Part shown: positions 192 to 55,461 of the stretch, one piece after another
Numbering within the stretch: position 1 is the first letter of the stretch
Layout: each line of letters starts with the position of its first letter
Virus record (IMG/VR): IMGVR_UViG_3300011116_000399
Coordinates: 1-58,158 of that record
Source: a virus
Taxonomy: Duplodnaviria > Caudoviricetes
DNA: 58,158 nt
Direction: 5' to 3' (one strand)
The notes under the pieces: generated by a model
Database searches by the model: none
Told to the model about the DNA's origin: nothing
What the model saw: only the letters and a program-made list of their open reading frames with translations
Made by a program: the position numbers and the translations under genes

Positions 192-298
192 GAACTGAAG
201 AAGACCCTGCCGCTTTAATTGTTTTGTACCGTGATGGAAAACCAACTGACACTAAAGTTGGACATAAGGTTTCTACTCTAAAAAAAAGTAGAGATTGA
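5..298 (+). CDS. 3' part of a junction-spanning head-associated protein (true start ATG 57831, 144 aa) with a DUF2945/Hva1 Tudor-like domain
   Basis: In frame with ATG 57831 across the overlap. VGDMVSW-S-GG...G.EEDPAALI...VGHKVSTL pattern. Confidence 0.8.
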   Translation: MEAQRRLGFAINKALNDLPFNKAVSVGDMVSWQSSGGRAEGKVLRIARSGRINVPDSSFNIQGTEEDPAALIVLYRDGKPTDTKVGHKVSTLKKSRD

Positions 299-500
299 AA
301 AGCACGGCGACCATGACCAATCAAGTCATGGAGACCGATACAACGCAGACGATTCTGAAGGAGAAGATTCTTCAGAGGCAAAGAATCCAAAACCAAATTT
401 CACTCCATACAAGGATGATTCTGAAGGTGAGTTTGAAGATTTAGATTATGATGACCCAAAGTACATGGACACTATGGATTTGAAACCGAGGAGAAAATGA
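282..500 (+). CDS. Start-less +1-frame extension carrying the KHGDHDQSSHG tag and an acidic peptide, reached via the A8 run at 280-287
   Basis: Open from after TAA 279-281 to TGA 498-500. Encodes VEIEKHGDHDQSSHG... and its stop overlaps ATG 497 (ATGA). Confidence 0.65.
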   Translation, partial: KKVEIEKHGDHDQSSHGDRYNADDSEGEDSSEAKNPKPNFTPYKDDSEGEFEDLDYDDPKYMDTMDLKPRRK

Positions 501-49507: not shown

Positions 49508-50947
49508 ATGGCAGACAAACCAACCCCCGATTTAACTGAACTCGGAGCCACGGGTTTACGCCGTTCAGGTGGAACGGTCTATGAAGAATTCTTAGTAAAT
49601 CTACGAGGTATTCGTGGCGCAAAAGTTTATCGAGAGATGGCGGACAATGACCCAACCATCGGCTCAATGTTATTCGCAATCGAGAAAGTTATTACCCGTC
49701 TTGAATGGCGTGTAGACCCATACTCAGATAATTCTGAAGATGGAGAGATTACTAAAGAGGATAAAGAAGTAGCGGCGTTCGTAGAATCTTGCTTAAACGA
49801 TATGTCAGATTCTTGGGATTCAACACTATCCCAAATGTTGTCGATGTTAATTTTTGGTTATTCATATCATGAGATTGTTTACAAAGTTCGAGGCGGAGAT
49901 GTAAACGACCCACAGAAAAATTCTAAGTTTAATGATGGTCGTATTGGCTGGCGCAAAATGCCAATCCGTGCCCAAGAAACTTTATTTAGATGGATGATGG
50001 ATGAAGATGGTGGCATCCAAGGAATGATTCAAGTAGACCCATCAACGGGTGGAACTCACGCTATCCCGATTGAGAAATCTTTGTTATTCCGTACATCTTC
50101 ACAAAAGAATAACCCTGAAGGTCGTTCTATTCTTCGTAATGCTTACCGCCCTTGGTATTTCAAGCGCCGTATTGAAGAGATTGAAGCAATCGGTATTGAG
50201 CGTGACTTAGCAGGTTTGCCAGTTGCTTATGTACCACCTGAGTTCTTATCTTCAACAGCAACCGCAGAGCAAGCGGCAGTTCTAGCATCAATCCAAAATA
50301 TCGTTACCTCTATCAAGCGTAATGAGCAAGAAGGAATTGTTATGCCTTCTATGTACGATGATGCTGGACATAAAGTATTTGATTTAGTTTTATTATCATC
50401 AGGCGGAAGCCGTCAGTTCGACACAGACAAGATTATTCAAAGATATGACCAAAGAATTTCTATGTCTATCCTTTCAGACTTTATTCTTCTTGGCTCTGAC
50501 CGAGTTGGCTCATACGCTCTTGGAACCTCCAAGATGGATTTGTGGTCAATGGCAGTTGATTCAATCGCTAAAAATATCGCTGAGGTAATGAACCAATATG
50601 CGATTCCAAGATTACTAAAACTTAACGGAATGAATCCATCCCGTGCCCCTTATCTAACTTATGGTGAAGTAAGCCATGTTGATTTGAACGAAATCTCAGC
50701 CTTTGTTTCTAACTTGGCTCAGGTTGGCGTACTTGTTCCTGACCCTAAGTTGGAAGAGTATCTACGAGACTTGGCTGGATTACCACCTGCTGAACACGAT
50801 GGACAAAATTTTGGTATGCCTCCAATGCCTGAAGGTATGGGAATTCCTCCTGCACCTGAAGAAGCCGATGGCGCTGGTGAAGAAGAATTACCTCCACCTC
50901 CACCAACACCTGAAGGATTGAATCCACCCGCACCTGAAGTTGGTTAA
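49508..50947 (+). CDS. Portal protein (DUF935-like)
   Basis: Y.EM...D..I, NPEG.S.LR.AY.PW.FK, GSYALG; precedes MuF. Confidence 0.88.
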   Translation: MADKPTPDLTELGATGLRRSGGTVYEEFLVNLRGIRGAKVYREMADNDPTIGSMLFAIEKVITRLEWRVDPYSDNSEDGEITKEDKEVAAFVESCLNDMSDSWDSTLSQMLSMLIFGYSYHEIVYKVRGGDVNDPQKNSKFNDGRIGWRKMPIRAQETLFRWMMDEDGGIQGMIQVDPSTGGTHAIPIEKSLLFRTSSQKNNPEGRSILRNAYRPWYFKRRIEEIEAIGIERDLAGLPVAYVPPEFLSSTATAEQAAVLASIQNIVTSIKRNEQEGIVMPSMYDDAGHKVFDLVLLSSGGSRQFDTDKIIQRYDQRISMSILSDFILLGSDRVGSYALGTSKMDLWSMAVDSIAKNIAEVMNQYAIPRLLKLNGMNPSRAPYLTYGEVSHVDLNEISAFVSNLAQVGVLVPDPKLEEYLRDLAGLPPAEHDGQNFGMPPMPEGMGIPPAPEEADGAGEEELPPPPPTPEGLNPPAPEVG

Positions 50948-50949
50948 AG

Positions 50950-51957
50950 ATGCCGTTTCGTTTTGCGAAAGCCGAAAGACCTAGGCGCATACCTTTAACA
51001 CCTCAAGAGCAAGCCTTGGCTCGCACACTTTTTGAATCTATTCAGCGAGCCACAGATAGCATCTCTCTTCGACAGTTAGAGAGTTTGCTTCGTAATCTTG
51101 ACCCACAAACTTTAGAAAGATTGTTGAATTCAATAACAATCGCTAATCAAAAAAAGATTCAAGATTCTTTATTATCCTCGATTGATATTGGTGGTAATGA
51201 AGCAATCAAACAGATTAGAGAGATTGCACCTAAGTTAGCCCTACCTGCATTTATACCAACCAAGGTAAAGATAGAAAACCGTCCAGCAATGGCTAACATG
51301 GAGTTCACAAAACTTCCTGCGTGGGCACAATCTAAACAACCTAAAGTTGAATTCAAAATGTCATTCAATAAAACAAACCCAAACTCTTTAGCCTTTGCTC
51401 AACGCCGTGCTGGTGAACTTATTACATCTATTGACACATTAACCCGTGAATCAATTCGTCGAACAATTATTGACGCTTTTAATGAGCAGATAGATTACCG
51501 AGCCGCCGCTAGAAGAATTAAAAATGTTGTTGGGTTGCATCCACGATGGGCTGATGCAGTTACTAAATTTGAAAAAGATGAGTTTGCTAGATTACTTAAA
51601 CGAGGATTAAAAGAAGAAGTTGCTCGGGCTAAGGCTATGGATAGAGCCACTAGATATTCAGATTCTCTAAAGAGTAAAAGAGCAACGATGATTGCTAGAA
51701 CCGAAATTCAGATTGCTCAAAACGAGGGACGCTACGAAGGATGGAAGCAAGCGGCTGAAGAAGGTTATGTTGATGTTGAGTCACAGAAAATGTGGATTAT
51801 TGCTCAAGATGAACGCACCTGTGAAATTTGTACAGAATTAGATGGAGAAGTTGTTGGTTGGAATGAACCATTTTCTAGCGGTGATGAAACTCCAGGCAGG
51901 GTGCATCCTAATTGTCGTTGCACCATGGTAATCATTCCACCTGAGAGACGCTCATGA
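50950..51957 (+). CDS. MuF-like minor head protein
   Basis: RA.MIARTE, K.W....DERTC..C..LDG, HPNCRC. Confidence 0.92.
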   Translation: MPFRFAKAERPRRIPLTPQEQALARTLFESIQRATDSISLRQLESLLRNLDPQTLERLLNSITIANQKKIQDSLLSSIDIGGNEAIKQIREIAPKLALPAFIPTKVKIENRPAMANMEFTKLPAWAQSKQPKVEFKMSFNKTNPNSLAFAQRRAGELITSIDTLTRESIRRTIIDAFNEQIDYRAAARRIKNVVGLHPRWADAVTKFEKDEFARLLKRGLKEEVARAKAMDRATRYSDSLKSKRATMIARTEIQIAQNEGRYEGWKQAAEEGYVDVESQKMWIIAQDERTCEICTELDGEVVGWNEPFSSGDETPGRVHPNCRCTMVIIPPERRS

Positions 51958-53258
51958 GTATTACTCTCACATTCCCTGCTGGCTATAAGCCAGTTCTTAA
52001 GCACGGTGAACACGACCAAAGTTCTCATGGTAGTTGGGCGCACGGAAATTCTTCATTGCAAAAAGAGTATGCGGGATTGAGGGAAAGCGGAATTATAGAA
52101 AATGGAAAATACTACCCTGAGTACGATTCCGTAGCGACATCAGGCTTTGACCCCTCTAAATACTCAAGACCTTATGACCCAAGGGCGCTGACTAATGACG
52201 CCAAGGTTCATTCAGGTCCTCAGTTACGAGAAATAATTCAACAACTTATGGATAGGGAAGAATATACCCCTGAAATACAAAAAAAAGTTGAGGAAATTTC
52301 TAAAAGTTTTTTAACAGCCAATTTAGAAAATGTACAAACTTATTTTGAACAAGAAGCGGCAAAACAGAATTTAGGCGCAACAAATTCTAAGATTTATGTA
52401 GCGGGTCAGACTCAAAGATTATCTAACTACCTTGATGCTAATAATGCAGAAGTTAGATATGAAATTGCAAAAGCCATCTATCCCCTCCTTGGCGAATTAC
52501 GAGGTATGCAATTAGGTAATTATTTACAAAATCACGAAAGAGTAACAAAGGAAATTCAAGAGAATGTTTCCAAGGGATTTCCCGTCATAGCCGTTGATTC
52601 AAGAGATTTTGAAAAAGTTTTAACAGATGGTAGATTTAAGTCACAATTTGAGTCAAATAAAAGTGGGGGAATGTACGATTTAGGCAGGAGAAAAATCGAA
52701 GAAGTAGAGCAAGGAATTCCAGTAAACAGTAAATTGAAGGATAGACCAATTTACGGATACCTTGCAAGCCAACTATCTGTTGATGAAAATTCTGCAAGAG
52801 ATGTAAATAACGAAAAACCTACCAATACATTTACCGTGAACACAAGCCGAGTAGAACAATATGGCGACTTAAGGGTATTATTAAATGATGATGTAAAAGA
52901 AAGAACCACTTATACTTTAAGAGATTCTTTACAACAAGGCTCACTTCCACAACCCTTGTCCGAGAAAGTGACTAGAGATAATCTTGTAACTGCGGGTTTA
53001 CATGCGAGAAGTTCCTATGGAAGCGGCGGTAAACATACAAGCGAGTATGTTGAAGTACAAATCAAAAATGGTGTAAAAGTTACAGATATTAAACAAATTT
53101 ATATTGTTAGTCGAAGTAGTGATTCACAAGACAGGGAGCGTCGAGTTAATGAGGTTAAAAGCATGTTGAGTGCTTCAGGTAATACAAATTTAATTGATAA
53201 AGTTAAATTTTTACCCGCAGAAAAAGATGGTTTGTCAGATTATGGGTGGTCAGATTAA
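51954..53258 (+). CDS. Head-cargo effector 1: His tag plus DUF3626-like domain (possible ADP-ribosyltransferase fold)
   Basis: KHGEHDQSSHGSW; GRFKSQFE...SGG, RP.YGYL, QYG, RTT.T..DSL, YVEVQI. Confidence 0.75.
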   Translation: MSITLTFPAGYKPVLKHGEHDQSSHGSWAHGNSSLQKEYAGLRESGIIENGKYYPEYDSVATSGFDPSKYSRPYDPRALTNDAKVHSGPQLREIIQQLMDREEYTPEIQKKVEEISKSFLTANLENVQTYFEQEAAKQNLGATNSKIYVAGQTQRLSNYLDANNAEVRYEIAKAIYPLLGELRGMQLGNYLQNHERVTKEIQENVSKGFPVIAVDSRDFEKVLTDGRFKSQFESNKSGGMYDLGRRKIEEVEQGIPVNSKLKDRPIYGYLASQLSVDENSARDVNNEKPTNTFTVNTSRVEQYGDLRVLLNDDVKERTTYTLRDSLQQGSLPQPLSEKVTRDNLVTAGLHARSSYGSGGKHTSEYVEVQIKNGVKVTDIKQIYIVSRSSDSQDRERRVNEVKSMLSASGNTNLIDKVKFLPAEKDGLSDYGWSD

Positions 53259-55280
53259 ATGGACAATACGCTCAATATAGAAAAAGGCACCGTTTTATAC
53301 AAACGCTCAGATGGTAGTGAGATTGTATTTACAAAAATGGATGATGAAGATTTCTACGGTTTTGTTCGTAATCCCAAAGGTAAAGTTTTTGAAGAACAAT
53401 TATTAGGGTCGATACTTCGTCGAGGTGATTGGGAAGCCACCTATGAACCTGTGAAAAAGCACGGTGACCACGACCAATCAACCCATGGTGCTTGGGCGCA
53501 TGGCGTTCAAGTAGCCCCTGAAAAGATTCGAGAGGCTATCCAGCAAGTCAAGGACAATGAAGGTCTGACCATCGATATGAAAGATGGGGATATGCCCAAA
53601 ACGGGCTTTACCGTGGCTAAGGGTAAGAAATTCGCCGAAATCGTCAAGGCTGAGGATTTCTATGGGGAAAAAGGCGAGGAGATTCTGACTTCCTACCTAA
53701 AACAATACAGGTCAGAACTTAATAAAGAGAATAACTACCTCGGTTTATGGCATAATAAGAAAGATGGACAGGTTTATCTTGATGTTTCTGAAAACATCCA
53801 AGATGAAACGGAGGCTATAAACCGTGGTCGTGACAGAGACCAAATCTCAATATGGGATGTAGTAAATCTAAAAGAAATACCAACAGGAGGTACAGGTGCC
53901 ACAAAAACTAGAAGTAGTCAAACTTCCCGATTTGTCAAAGATGACAGACGAGCAGATAGAAGCATACGCCAAGGAGATTTGGGCGAAGTTAGCAAAAGGC
54001 AAGAACGAGTCAAAGTAATTTATTTTGATTACGGATTAAAACCCGTATTCAAACATGAAGGTCACGAAGACCAGTCAAGCCACGGTAACTGGGCTAGAGG
54101 ATTTACTGAGCAAGAACAATCTCGTATTGAGTCTATGGACAAAGTTGGTCCATCAAAAGATGATTTAAGTAGATTACTAAAAGGCAAAAAAGAATATACC
54201 GACGAAGATAAAACTCTTGTCGTAGAAAATGATTCTGATTTATATGCCGATGCAACTCAAGATATTGATTCTAGGGTTGAGGAAAGACTTGCTCGACTTC
54301 AAGCAGAGTTTCCAAATCATGTTTATACAGAACAAGAAAAAGCAACTATCTATGAGGACACACAAAGAGACATGGTTGCTGAATATGTAGATTCCAATAG
54401 TGAGACATTAGACGAATATCTCCAAGCAAGCGAGGGAGATTCTTTTGACCCTCAAGAATCAATCGATTCATTCCAAGATGTTTACGGTGTAAGCCATACT
54501 GGAACAACTAGAGATGGAAGAGAAGTAACCCTAAGTGCGAATGTTGGCGATGTTAGCGCCGACGGTTACAACATTTATATTCGTGGAGATGTTATTAGTG
54601 ACGATGGAAATTTGGCTGGAGAGTTTGAGCGACGCATTTTTCAAAAAGACGGAGTTTGGAATGTTGAACACGCAGTCTTGAGGTTAGATGATGAATACCA
54701 AGGTACGGGTTTTGGTAAAGAGTTTATTGAGCAATCAGAGGCTTGGTATACCGCTAAAGGTTTTGGTTTCATCGAAGTTGGAACAGCATGGGACGGCGCT
54801 CGCCATTGGGCTAGAGCGGGGTATGACTGGAAGCCTGACAGAGTTTCAGAAAACTTAGATAACATTTCTCAAAGAGTTGCTTCTATGGTCGATGAGGATA
54901 GTGGCTGGTTCAAAGAGGGTTCTCCCGAAAGAATTGAGTTTGATAATTTAATGTCAAGAGCAACAAACGAATACAGCCCTTATTTTGAAGATGAAAGCGG
55001 ATATAAGTATCCCGCTTTTAGTTCAGTCAAAGATTTGAAAGCAGATGACTTCCCACTACCTGCTCATTTTGCAAACATTGGATATTCAAAAGAAAAAGCA
55101 GAAGAAGTTGGTACTTGGGCTGGTAAAGAATTGATGTATGACTTGAGAATGAAATACACGAAGTCATTAACCGCTGAGGGACAAAAACTCTTACAAGGTC
55201 CTATTGACCTTGACGGGGATGGATTGGTTTATGATGGAACAGCCCGTGAAAAGCCAGCACCAAGTAGCGCAAAGAACTAA
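53259..55280 (+). CDS. Head-cargo polyprotein 2: small N-domain, tag plus unknown domain, tag plus GNAT acetyltransferase, DGDG tail
   Basis: Tags at 53457 and 54051; GNAT motif A YQGTGFG and G..HWARAGY. Confidence 0.8.
   Translation: MDNTLNIEKGTVLYKRSDGSEIVFTKMDDEDFYGFVRNPKGKVFEEQLLGSILRRGDWEATYEPVKKHGDHDQSTHGAWAHGVQVAPEKIREAIQQVKDNEGLTIDMKDGDMPKTGFTVAKGKKFAEIVKAEDFYGEKGEEILTSYLKQYRSELNKENNYLGLWHNKKDGQVYLDVSENIQDETEAINRGRDRDQISIWDVVNLKEIPTGGTGATKTRSSQTSRFVKDDRRADRSIRQGDLGEVSKRQERVKVIYFDYGLKPVFKHEGHEDQSSHGNWARGFTEQEQSRIESMDKVGPSKDDLSRLLKGKKEYTDEDKTLVVENDSDLYADATQDIDSRVEERLARLQAEFPNHVYTEQEKATIYEDTQRDMVAEYVDSNSETLDEYLQASEGDSFDPQESIDSFQDVYGVSHTGTTRDGREVTLSANVGDVSADGYNIYIRGDVISDDGNLAGEFERRIFQKDGVWNVEHAVLRLDDEYQGTGFGKEFIEQSEAWYTAKGFGFIEVGTAWDGARHWARAGYDWKPDRVSENLDNISQRVASMVDEDSGWFKEGSPERIEFDNLMSRATNEYSPYFEDESGYKYPAFSSVKDLKADDFPLPAHFANIGYSKEKAEEVGTWAGKELMYDLRMKYTKSLTAEGQKLLQGPIDLDGDGLVYDGTAREKPAPSSAKN
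53896..54018 (+). CDS. Nested overprinted 40-aa gene (candidate partner/immunity protein)
   Basis: AGGAGG-5 nt-GTG; MPQKLEVVKLPDLSKMTDEQIEAYAKEIWAKLAKGKNESK. Confidence 0.65.
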   Translation: MPQKLEVVKLPDLSKMTDEQIEAYAKEIWAKLAKGKNESK

Positions 55281-55299
55281 ACTGGGGTATAATTAGATT

Positions 55300-55461
55300 A
55301 TGAATAGACGAGAGACACAAAAGGCTATCCAAGAGGCTTATGCAAAATGGTCTGAGAAGGTGGAATTTACCTCTGAGACTGGAGCATCCGATAAAGACGA
55401 GTCTGAGATTATGGCTCAGATTTCAACCATACTTCAAGGAAATAAACCGCAGTCAGAATAG
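55300..55461 (+). CDS. Leaderless 53-aa protein (candidate GNAT partner)
   Basis: AACTGGGG-TATAAT-6 nt-ATG right after the GNAT gene. Confidence 0.7.
   Translation: MNRRETQKAIQEAYAKWSEKVEFTSETGASDKDESEIMAQISTILQGNKPQSE

What the first reader, a model, noticed from the sequence alone, without database searches (positions are those of the whole stretch)
53885..54018. Hidden nested gene inside the polyprotein linker
Seen: a perfect AGGAGG, 5 nt, then GTG opens a 40-codon ORF in the +1 frame encoding an amphipathic helix (MTDEQIEAYAKEIWAKL). The host frame there is an Arg/Ser-rich, unstructured-looking linker. The nested stop falls just before IYFDYGLKPVFKH, which resembles the N-terminus of gene 51954 (ITLTFPAGYKPVLKH). 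It is absent from the ORF track. Inference: two cargo genes fused by reading through the intervening immunity gene, which stays expressed by overprinting.
Basis: partly seen in the sequence, partly recalled or inferred. Interest (0 to 1): 0.78.

Follow-up and report, generated by a model that had tools for sequence, protein, structure and literature searches.

The report
Small gene hidden inside phage polyprotein linker
A roughly 40-codon gene is written in a second reading frame inside the spacer between two domains of a phage virion protein, and evolution has preserved the small gene's protein sequence while only keeping the big gene's frame open there.

Summary
AGGAGG (53885-53890), 5 nt, then GTG opens a 40-codon +1-frame ORF (53896-54018) inside the 673-codon ORF 53259-55280.

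In this window alone the motif and ORF are unremarkable. Comparison with relatives is decisive:
- Across 39 unique relatives the nested frame has pN/pS 0.27. The host frame over the same bases has 2.20, like an off-frame control.
- Variable sites move from host codon position 3 to position 1 from about the GTG to the nested stop.
- Of 58 unique homologous small ORFs, 54 lie +1 inside long ORFs.
- Start signals differ by lineage (GTG at N5, ATG at N8, GTG at N10, ATG at N6), usually behind AGGAG(G).
- Only 0.04-2% of synonymous recodings of the peptide keep the host frame open, so read-through is also selected.
- Free-standing homologues exist.

Best reading: a separately initiated embedded gene, sitting after a phage-specific domain and before the His-rich motif that starts the next module, which has a GNAT-like core. 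A +1 frameshift tail is disfavoured.

The "immunity gene" role has no support. The "fusion by read-through" origin is plausible but unshown. No expression data exist, and the peptide's function is unknown.

The parts
53885..53890 (+). Shine-Dalgarno sequence AGGAGG of the nested gene, written in host codons Thr-Gly-Gly (ACA GGA GGT)
   Evidence: AGGAGG followed by N5 and GTG is present in 34 of the 34 first-scan loci that hold the peptide. Host codons 209 ACA, 210 GGA, 212 ACA and 213 GGT are invariant in 30 of 30 unique relatives, while neighbouring third positions vary.
53896..54018 (+). Nested small gene: GTG start, 40 codons, TAA stop, +1 relative to the host ORF. The product has a short N-terminal hydrophobic stretch, LPD-x-S-x-MTDE and an amphipathic helix.
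   Evidence: Its pN/pS is 0.27. Variation sits at nested codon position 3. A profile search found about 35 small ORFs of 38-62 aa with the same core. There are 58 unique homologous ORFs, 54 of them nested.
53259..55280 (+). Host ORF (673 codons): a multi-module virion or cargo-type protein downstream of the portal and MuF genes
   Evidence: The frame is open stop-to-stop in all 37 first-scan loci.
53457..53897 (+). Module 1: His-rich motif plus an alpha/beta domain of about 125 aa ending in ...DQISIWDV..EIPTGGTG. It directly precedes the nested gene in most lineages.
   Evidence: Alignment A4. The AlphaFold model has pLDDT 83.5. There are 23 BFVD matches at E<=1e-3, all phage proteins. No solved fold matches: Foldseek PDB gave none at E<=1e-3 and VIA-align gave a best Z of 4.0. 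A tblastn hit falls in Synechococcus phage P60 gp34, annotated 'internal virion protein'.
53895..54017 (+). Host-frame spacer (host codons 213-253). It is translated as a linker but is under no amino-acid constraint and is only kept free of stops.
   Evidence: Host-frame pN/pS here is 2.20, against 0.24 upstream. Only 0.045% (usage-weighted) or 0.84% (uniform) of synonymous recodings of the nested peptide leave this frame open.
54018..54101 (+). His-rich module-start motif IYFDYGLKPVFKHEGHEDQSSHGNWARG. It recurs at 53442-53504 and at the N-terminus of the 51954 gene.
54018..55277 (+). Module 2 (420 aa): a helical region followed by a GNAT-like acetyltransferase core
   Evidence: Alignment A5. 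The model has pLDDT 80.1. The top Foldseek PDB matches are mostly GNAT acetyltransferases, best E 5e-04 and probability about 1.0, but with low TM-scores.
53903..53907 (+). A5 run (A6-A7 in most relatives), considered as a possible +1 slip site and disfavoured
   Evidence: It is absent in L062 and in the L086 type.

Best explanation
Bases 53896-54018 are a genuine embedded (overprinted) small gene. Ribosomes start on their own at AGGAGG-N5-GTG inside the mRNA of the large virion-protein gene. They read the +1 frame for 40 codons and stop at TAA. The product is a peptide of about 40 aa: a short hydrophobic N-terminal stretch, LPD-x-S-x-MTDE, and a roughly 20-residue amphipathic helix.

The same bases in the host frame form a sequence-indifferent spacer. 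Its only selected property is the absence of stop codons, so that the downstream module is made fused to the upstream domain. That module has no in-frame ATG, GTG or TTG in the bases just after the nested stop.

Shown here: purifying selection on the nested frame; loss of amino-acid constraint on the host frame; selection for host-frame openness; conserved but lineage-specific start signals.

Inferred: that the peptide is made in infected cells. Also inferred, from synteny alone at about 35%, that it acts together with the upstream module as an assembly, chaperone or inhibitory partner made in the producing cell, rather than as an unrelated passenger.
For: 1. Frame-specific selection. In 39 unique relatives, mean pairwise pN/pS in the overlap is 0.27 for the nested frame (pS 0.314, pN 0.083), 2.20 for the host frame and 1.21 for the third frame. 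In the 90 host codons upstream the host frame has 0.24 and its off-frames 1.55 and 1.27.

2. Phase switch. Host third-position diversity is 0.18-0.56 elsewhere and 0.00-0.08 in host codons 210-250, where first-position diversity rises to 0.15-0.26. Per codon, the switch begins at codons 212-218 and ends at the nested TAA. Minimum changes by host position 1/2/3 are 48/25/13 in the overlap against 132/125/246 in the flanks (chi-square p 1.5e-09).

3. Deep conservation. In the first viral scan, 34 of 37 loci hold the peptide at 73-97% identity, even where the host protein is 46-50% identical. A divergent upstream-domain variant (L026/L039, L035, L040, L041) carries a homologous +1 peptide that is 22-28% identical to the window's. 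In further lineages (L068-72, L074/75, L085, L086/89/90, L091, L092-94) it again lies +1 inside ORFs of 463 to more than 2372 aa. Final census: 58 unique small-ORF DNAs, of which 54 are nested in a long -1-frame ORF.

4. Initiation signals.
- AGGAGG-N5-GTG in the window type, L062 and L091.
- AGGAGG-N8-ATG in L068-72.
- GGAG-N10-GTG in L085, L086 and L092.
- AGGAG-N6-ATG in L074/75.
- Overall, 42 of 46 unique copies have AGGAG(G) 3-10 nt before a start codon.
- Genes of this window commonly carry such Shine-Dalgarno sites.

5. L097/L098 keep the peptide ORF with an ATG and a GGGAGGGA-type site, although the upstream domain is gone. Stops lie in all three frames, and a host-frame stop lies about 18 codons upstream.

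6. Free-standing homologues begin with their own Met: L109 at 58-60 aa, and L106/L107 at 108 aa.

7. Read-through is selected. The host frame stays open in only 0.035-2.0% (usage-weighted) or 0.5-9% (uniform) of 20,000 synonymous recodings, in each of 8 lineages tested. It is open in all 37 first-scan loci.
Against: - There is no direct evidence of translation. The virus is known only from metagenomes, and no cultured phage in the GenBank phage collection holds the peptide.
- The four L026-type copies have only weak or no Shine-Dalgarno sites.
- Part of the Shine-Dalgarno conservation could come from the host protein. The upstream domain ends in PTGG even in phage P60, which has no nested ORF.
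- An A5-A7 run follows the start in most copies, and nested-frame conservation begins about there. A +1 slip is therefore not formally excluded for those lineages.
- The sequences are phylogenetically related, so the p-values overstate independence.
- The proposed partnership with the upstream module rests on gene order alone.
Confidence: 0.8

Rival explanations
1. Programmed +1 ribosomal frameshift, or transcriptional slippage, at the A-run just after the GTG. A fraction of ribosomes translating the host ORF shift, add the helix as a C-terminal tail to module 1 and terminate. Two products result, as with dnaX tau/gamma or lambda G/GT (both recalled).
For: An A5-A7 run, or a host AAA followed by A or G, is present at the right place in the window type, L068-72 and the L026 type. 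Nested-frame constraint begins about there. An upstream AGGAGG could in principle act as a stimulator.
Against: - L086/L089 have no host-frame AAA-purine or A-run at the junction, and L062 has only AAA-G.
- The AGGAGG is 13-16 nt from the putative slip codon. That is unlike the roughly 3 nt used for +1 stimulation in prfB (recalled), whereas its 5-10 nt distance from a start codon fits initiation.
- A start codon is present in every lineage, which a frameshift would not need.
- L097/98 keep the peptide ORF without an upstream ORF to shift from.
- No protein carrying the peptide in frame behind module 1 was found ('longer' search). This is weak evidence.
- Stand-alone module-1 homologues of 120-139 aa align over their whole length (TMt 0.75-0.84) and so lack such a tail.
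Confidence: 0.09
2. The ORF is not translated. The stretch is conserved at the DNA or RNA level, for example as a recombination linker between exchangeable modules or as an RNA structure, and the open +1 frame is incidental.
For: The stretch is unusually conserved at the nucleotide level and lies exactly at a module boundary where downstream modules are exchanged. The RNA fold z-score of -1.89 is mildly negative.
Against: - Nucleotide-level constraint does not predict three-base periodicity of variation in the +1 phase, nor pN/pS of 0.27 in one frame only.
- L026-type copies share only 22-28% peptide identity, yet keep the ORF, the start and the MT.E...F/Y...I motif.
- Free-standing protein homologues exist.
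- The one candidate long-range pairing (CCAAATCTC with GAGATTTGG) is broken without compensation in L045 and L047.
Confidence: 0.04
3. Double shift: ribosomes go +1 at the A-run and return -1 at A-AAG-TAA. The helix would then be an integral part of one continuous polyprotein.
For: A-AAG-TAA, a Lys codon able to slip back onto AAA before a stop, is invariant in window-type copies.
Against: L026-type copies end in ...AAT CGC/CGT TAA/TAG, which cannot slip. The A-AAG-TAA conservation is explained by host K-V-I together with the nested K-stop. The model requires two efficient shifts and leaves the selected openness of the host frame unexplained.
Confidence: 0.02

Closest known systems
Rz1 embedded in Rz (lambda spanin genes) and similar same-strand embedded phage genes such as phiX174 E within D
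   Same: A small gene lies wholly inside a larger one, on the same strand, in the +1 frame. It has its own Shine-Dalgarno site and start codon, and both products are needed.
   Different: The peptide has no Cys, lipobox or signal sequence, so it is not a spanin. The locus is in the head and virion-protein block, not the lysis cassette. Here the host frame over the overlap shows no amino-acid constraint at all and serves only as a spacer.
Polyvalent proteins and MuF-associated packaged multi-domain proteins of phages (Iyer et al. 2017, PMC5512222; search listing and 'find' passages seen)
   Same: The host ORF is a multi-module protein next to portal and MuF genes. Its modules recombine between relatives. 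One relative is more than 2372 aa.
   Different: The passages I saw mention no embedded out-of-frame gene, no frameshift ('frameshift' 0 occurrences, 'linker' 0) and no His-rich module-start motif. The paper's supplementary domain lists could not be seen and might name module 1.
MuF polymorphic toxin plus immunity gene pairs of temperate phages (Jamet et al. 2017; recalled, not read here)
   Same: A variable 'cargo' region sits downstream of MuF, and a small gene is associated with a cargo module.
   Different: MuF is a separate gene here (50950-51957). The small gene is inside the ORF, not after it. The adjacent upstream module has no toxin-like or known fold. No immunity family matched.
Programmed frameshifts that give two products from one phage or bacterial gene: dnaX tau/gamma, lambda G/GT, prfB (recalled)
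   Same: There is an A-rich run with an upstream Shine-Dalgarno-like element, and a short alternative-frame tail ends in a stop.
   Different: The slippery site is not conserved across lineages, and the Shine-Dalgarno spacing fits initiation. A start codon is always present, and the peptide survives without an upstream ORF.

Membership tests
Embedded (overprinted) same-strand protein-coding gene | ORF lies wholly inside another ORF in a different frame | tested here: met
   53896-54018 lies inside 53259-55280 in the +1 frame. 54 of 58 unique homologues are likewise nested.
Embedded (overprinted) same-strand protein-coding gene | Purifying selection on the embedded frame, beyond that explained by the host frame | tested here: met
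   pN/pS is 0.27 for the nested frame against 2.20 for the host frame in the overlap. Off-frame controls give 1.05-1.55. Codon-phase switch seen.
Embedded (overprinted) same-strand protein-coding gene | Own translation-initiation signals | tested here: met
   42 of 46 unique copies have AGGAG(G) 3-10 nt before ATG, GTG or TTG. The position and type of start differ by lineage.
Embedded (overprinted) same-strand protein-coding gene | Protein product detected | not testable with these tools
   Metagenome-only virus. Only contigs of RNA libraries were available, and these cannot show translation.
Programmed +1 ribosomal frameshift site | Conserved slippery codon context at the shift point | tested here: not met
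   An A-run is present in the window type but absent in L086/L089 and reduced to AAA-G in L062.
Programmed +1 ribosomal frameshift site | Dependence on an upstream zero-frame ORF | tested here: not met
   L097/L098 keep the peptide ORF with ATG although a host-frame stop lies about 18 codons upstream and module 1 is gone. Free-standing homologues exist.
MuF polymorphic toxin / immunity pair | MuF domain fused N-terminally to the toxin-bearing protein | tested here: not met
   Pfam Phage_Mu_F matches only the separate gene 50950-51957. The host protein and the 51954 product have no Pfam match.
MuF polymorphic toxin / immunity pair | Small gene is a recognisable immunity or antitoxin protein, or binds the adjacent domain | tested here: inconclusive
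   No family match in Pfam, NCBIfam, PADLOC or PHROGs. Binding could not be assessed.
Polyvalent / packaged multi-domain phage proteins (Iyer 2017) | Several unrelated domains in one polypeptide, shuffled between relatives, linked to head-packaging genes | tested here: met
   Portal and MuF lie immediately upstream. Modules are inserted or exchanged in L026/L035, L004, L085, L086, L092 and L075. Module 2 is GNAT-like, and module 1 also occurs in a P60 internal virion protein.
Rz1-type embedded spanin | Lipoprotein signal with lipobox Cys; location in the lysis cassette | tested here: not met
   The peptide has no Cys. Its neighbours are portal, MuF and head-morphogenesis or protease-like genes.

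The most novel reading that the evidence does not exclude
A pre-existing free-standing small-protein family was engulfed when flanking virion-cargo genes fused by reading through it. Cellular-type members of this family lie beside a type I restriction gene. The peptide would now be the dedicated non-packaged partner (chaperone, inhibitor or loading adaptor) of the phage-specific upstream domain, made in fixed genetic linkage with it. The host-frame spacer would be a 'coding shell' whose only function is frame continuity. This would be a general and so far unannotated way for phage polyproteins to carry hidden accessory genes at domain boundaries.
Probability: 0.2. Interest if true: 0.8.

Novelty: new member of a known kind. 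Interest (0 to 1): 0.62.

Why it matters
Gene callers discard ORFs embedded in longer ORFs, so elements like this are systematically missing from phage annotation.

- This one is short but has an unusually clean evolutionary signature. It is conserved across many lineages of environmental phages, inside proteins that are probably packaged and injected.
- It gives a concrete, testable case of two-frame coding in a dsDNA phage. One frame carries the information, and the other is selected only to stay open.
- It suggests that inter-domain linkers of polyvalent virion proteins are places to look for further hidden genes.
- It marks an unnamed small-protein family, with core h-x-h-h-x-LPD-x-S-x-MTDEEIDAYA-x-x-IW-x-K, and an unnamed phage domain (module 1) as a probable functional pair worth studying.

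Tried and rejected
- Binding of the peptide to module 1: complex prediction gave no verdict (score 0.01, mark 0.32). This is not evidence either way.
- Long-range RNA pairing between CCAAATCTC (in DQISIWDV) and GAGATTTGG (in KEIW): rejected. L045 and L047 break it without compensation, and the fold of 53815-54045 has z -1.89, with 8 of 200 shuffles as good.
- In-frame relatives of the peptide in longer proteins: the search for homologous proteins 'longer' scored none of 4 candidates. The tool itself calls this weak evidence.
- GenBank phages: blastn of 51900-55400 gave no match, and tblastn of the peptide gave no match.
- GTDB genomes: two scans, with A3 and with P0054, confirmed no relative. 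IMG/VR with P0054 gave none.
- Family libraries for the peptide and its homologues: Pfam, NCBIfam, PHROGs and PADLOC gave nothing above threshold. One member gave E 0.038 to DUF6887 over 16 residues, which I do not count.
- The long multi-stretch hits of the profile search are repeat proteins plus an artificial construct of ubiquitin-interaction motifs (P0008). I treat the resemblance as spurious.
- ESM Atlas: the window peptide is not held, and the homologue P0019 gave no usable hit.
- Module 1 against solved structures: Foldseek gave none at E<=1e-3. VIA-align wide gave a best Z of 4.0. A PDB sequence profile gave a best E of 0.16. The host protein against PDB gave a best E of 0.11.
- Public runs: two metatranscriptome studies (X1, X3) have short contigs (61-200 nt laid) over 53838-54083 at 85-95% likeness. 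The tool states that this does not show transcription. Only Logan contigs were available, so no starts, ends or strand can be read.
- Double-frameshift model: rejected (see rivals).
- Literature: five searches and passages of PMC5512222 showed no description of an embedded gene in MuF-linked or polyvalent proteins. Only search listings and abstract starts were seen for the other papers. Supplements were closed, so the domain tables of PMC5512222 and small-gene catalogues of phage genomes could not be checked.
- Rows dropped before counts:
  - One search left out 7 of 38 sequences (L011, L024, L026, L032, L035, L036, L037; partial or with an inserted module) and merged 1 duplicate.
  - One search used 39 unique sequences from the 55 loci that carry AGGAGG-N5-GTG with enough flank, so the L026-type and ATG-type lineages are not in those statistics.
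  - One search's regular expression also caught 5 unrelated ORFs, which I excluded by eye.
  - Many locus ids are the same contig fetched more than once, so I count unique DNA sequences.
Full report
WHAT IS THERE

The window is a near-complete virus record: 58,158 bases, CheckV completeness 96%. Around the finding lie four genes:
- a Mu-type portal gene (49508-50947);
- a separate MuF gene (50950-51957);
- a 434-codon gene with no Pfam family (51954-53258);
- the 673-codon host ORF (53259-55280), also with no Pfam family.

Downstream are head-morphogenesis-like and protease-like genes.

The finding's sequence statements are all correct. AGGAGG lies at 53885-53890. After 5 nt a GTG at 53896 opens a 40-codon +1-frame ORF ending at TAA 54016-54018. 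The ORF encodes VPQKLEVVKLPDLSKMTDEQIEAYAKEIWAKLAKGKNESK. The host frame over the same bases is an Arg/Ser-rich stretch. The nested stop abuts IYFDYGLKPVFKHEGHEDQSSHGNWARG. BLASTP aligns that segment to the N-terminus of the 51954 product (E 4e-07), and aligns host residues 58-82 to it as well (E 6e-10).

This His-rich motif marks the start of every module. A fourth copy lies near base 303.

IS IT MORE THAN CHANCE?

Not within the window alone. The pattern AGGAGGNNNNNGTG occurs once, and 27 of 100 shuffles give at least one match. Alternative-frame ORFs of 30-50 codons are common here. The case rests on comparison with relatives.

COMPARATIVE EVIDENCE

A scan of IMG/VR with the host protein gave 37 loci.
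- In 34 of them one tblastn segment in one frame runs across the linker.
- L026 and L035 have an extra module of about 630 nt.
- L036 does not reach the linker.
- The host frame is open stop-to-stop in all 37.

The nested peptide is found in the +1 frame in 34 of 37 loci at 73-97% identity. This includes loci whose host protein is only 46-50% identical. All 34 carry AGGAGG-N5-GTG and a TAA stop.

A codon alignment of 30 unique sequences shows a change of phase. Seven partial or insert-bearing loci were left out.
- Host third-position diversity is 0.18-0.56 elsewhere and falls to 0.00-0.08 in host codons 210-250.
- First-position diversity rises there to 0.15-0.26.
- Codon by codon, variation moves from position 3 to position 1 (nested position 3) between codons 212 and 218. 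It moves back exactly after the nested TAA.

Nei-Gojobori estimates on 39 unique sequences:

| Region and frame | pN/pS |
|---|---|
| Overlap, nested frame | 0.27 |
| Overlap, host frame | 2.20 |
| Overlap, third frame | 1.21 |
| Upstream 90 codons, host frame | 0.24 |
| Upstream 90 codons, off-frames | 1.55 and 1.27 |

The distribution of minimum changes over codon positions differs from the flanks with p about 1.5e-09. The sequences are related, so this p-value is only indicative.

DEEPER RELATIVES

L026/L039, L035, L040 and L041 have a divergent upstream domain and a different following module. At the same place, in the +1 frame, they carry MTEQTKPFMVEVPIPIKDMTKEEKDAFIEKILKAIEENR. This peptide is 22-28% identical to the window's but alignable along its length.

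A profile of the peptides was searched against 1.84 billion representatives. It found 50 proteins at E<=1e-3. About 35 are small ORFs of 38-62 aa with the core h-x-h-h-x-LPD-x-S-x-MTDEEIDAYA-x-x-IW-x-K. The long multi-stretch hits are repeats or an artificial construct.

I fetched DNA for such peptides from IMG/VR and from metagenome contigs. In lineage after lineage the peptide ORF is again +1 inside a long ORF of 463 to more than 2372 aa. It sits directly after the same upstream domain (...YLG.WH...GKVYLDVS.N...Q.SIWDV..EI.TGGTG) and before the next His-rich motif, whatever module follows. The one exception is L074/L075, where the upstream sequence is different.

The final census by hmmsearch over all fetched loci gave 58 unique small-ORF DNA sequences.
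- 54 are nested in a long -1-frame ORF.
- L106 and L107 hold a free-standing 108-aa protein with a Cys-rich N-terminus.
- L109 holds a free-standing protein of 58-60 aa.
- L097/L098 keep the peptide gene although the upstream domain is gone.

BOTH FRAMES ARE USED

I recoded the peptide synonymously 20,000 times in each of 8 lineages. The host frame stayed free of stops in only 0.035-2.0% of usage-weighted recodings, or 0.5-9% of uniform ones. Yet the host frame is open in every nested copy.

In the window no in-frame ATG, GTG or TTG follows the nested stop before the His motif (reading). The motif and the module after it evolve in the host frame, with variation at position 3. So the host frame is read through. 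Its amino-acid sequence in the overlap does not matter, but its openness does.

HOW IS THE NESTED FRAME ENTERED?

Two models were weighed: internal initiation, and a +1 shift at the A-run that follows the GTG.

For initiation:
- Every lineage has a start codon behind a Shine-Dalgarno-like site at 5-10 nt, but by different solutions.
  - AGGAGG-N5-GTG in the window type, L062 and L091.
  - AGGAGG-N8-ATG in L068-72.
  - GGAG-N10-GTG in L085, L086 and L092.
  - AGGAG-N6-ATG in L074/75.
- Overall, 42 of 46 unique copies have such a site. The four L026-type copies have weak sites or none.
- This phage's ordinary genes use such sites.
- Host Gly and Thr codons that spell the Shine-Dalgarno site and the GTG are invariant in 30 of 30 sequences, while neighbouring synonymous sites vary.
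- L086/L089 have no slippery context, and L062 has only AAA-G.
- L097/L098 and the free-standing homologues show the gene working without an upstream ORF.
- Stand-alone homologues of the upstream domain are complete at 120-139 aa.

For a shift:
- The A-run is present in most copies, and nested-frame constraint begins about there.

Caveat: the PTGG ending of the upstream domain is older than the nested gene. It is present in phage P60 gp34, which has no nested ORF. Part of the Shine-Dalgarno conservation may therefore be a protein constraint.

I put internal initiation at about 0.8-0.85 and a shift at about 0.09.

WHAT THE PARTS ARE

Module 1 (53457-53897) folds confidently, with pLDDT 83.5. 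It matches only phage proteins in BFVD: 23 at E<=1e-3, both stand-alone proteins and parts of 800-1100 aa proteins. It matches no solved structure. By tblastn it also occurs in an 'internal virion protein' of Synechococcus phage P60.

Module 2 (54018-55277) has a GNAT-like core. The top Foldseek PDB rows are mostly GNAT acetyltransferases, best E 5e-04.

The host ORF therefore fits the picture of packaged multi-domain ('polyvalent') phage proteins beside portal and MuF (PMC5512222; passages seen).

The peptide matches no curated family. Its function is not shown. Because it travels with module 1 whatever follows, my working guess (about 35%) is a partner of that domain made in the producing cell.

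ORIGIN

Free-standing homologues show that the peptide family is not confined to the overlap. They are about 60% identical to the phage peptides over the core and were found only in non-viral metagenome contigs. One lies beside a type I restriction R-subunit gene. No intermediate with three separate genes was found, and L097/L098 show that escape from the overlap is also possible. The direction is open.

COMPARISON AND NOVELTY

Architecturally this works like Rz1 within Rz or the embedded genes of phiX174 (recalled). It is not a spanin, since it has no Cys or signal sequence. It fails the tests for a frameshift site and for a MuF toxin-immunity pair (see Membership tests).

Five literature searches and the passages read gave no description of it. 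Supplements were closed.

I rate it a new member of a known kind (embedded overprinted phage gene). Its notable features are an exceptionally clean signature, wide conservation, and a host frame reduced to a spacer.

LIMITS

- There are no expression data. The RNA-library contigs that cover the stretch do not show transcription, let alone translation.
- The complex prediction gave no verdict.

Noticed in passing
window 268-500: ORF 5-298 ends just after an A8 run (276-283). The +1 frame immediately after the run reads KKVEIEKHGDHDQSSHGDRYNADDSEGE... for about 70 codons and carries the same His-rich module-start motif. This is a candidate slippage or frameshift site, or a homopolymer sequencing error.
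   Followed up: partly
window 52002, 53460, 54050 and 303 (motif positions): The motif KHG.HDQ..HG(.W) opens every module of the genes after MuF, in the window and in all relatives. It could be a packaging or targeting signal, a metal site or a protease site. Nothing was tested.
   Followed up: partly
L106:1-352, L107:371-694, L109:219-558: Free-standing homologues of the peptide (58-60 aa, or 108 aa with a Cys-rich N-terminal half) are each followed by an overlapping conserved ORF of 59-60 aa (MM..IPR...L..VQ..H/YAKWSEIY...). In L106 a type I restriction R-subunit-like gene follows as well. The contigs are non-viral.
   Followed up: partly
L097/L098:2000-2830: Two contigs carry identical sequence over the stretch examined. 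The peptide gene is intact with an ATG, but the upstream domain is replaced by sequence with stops in all three forward frames. Only a 119-codon remnant of the host frame is left.
   Followed up: partly
L112:1-230: In a 1157-base contig the peptide core continues in frame with a different, hydrophobic N-terminus (MREYLVTVLLAAVITYLI...), and the host frame has a stop just upstream. This may be a recombinant or an assembly chimera.
   Followed up: no
L074/L075 (host ORF more than 2372 aa): A very large polyvalent-type ORF carries the nested peptide gene (AGGAG-N6-ATG) after a different upstream sequence. Its host-frame overlap is Gly/Arg/Ser-rich, and a Thr-Pro repeat lies further on.
   Followed up: no
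window 54018-55277: Module 2 of the host protein has a GNAT-like acetyltransferase core with a YQGTGFGKEF motif. The C-terminus ...GPIDLDGDGLVYDGTAREKPAP is conserved across relatives.
   Followed up: partly
window 53838-53861 (host DQISIWDV): These eight host codons are almost invariant at synonymous sites too (one variable site among 30 sequences), just upstream of the nested gene and outside it. I have no explanation. The candidate pairing with the KEIW codons was rejected.
   Followed up: partly
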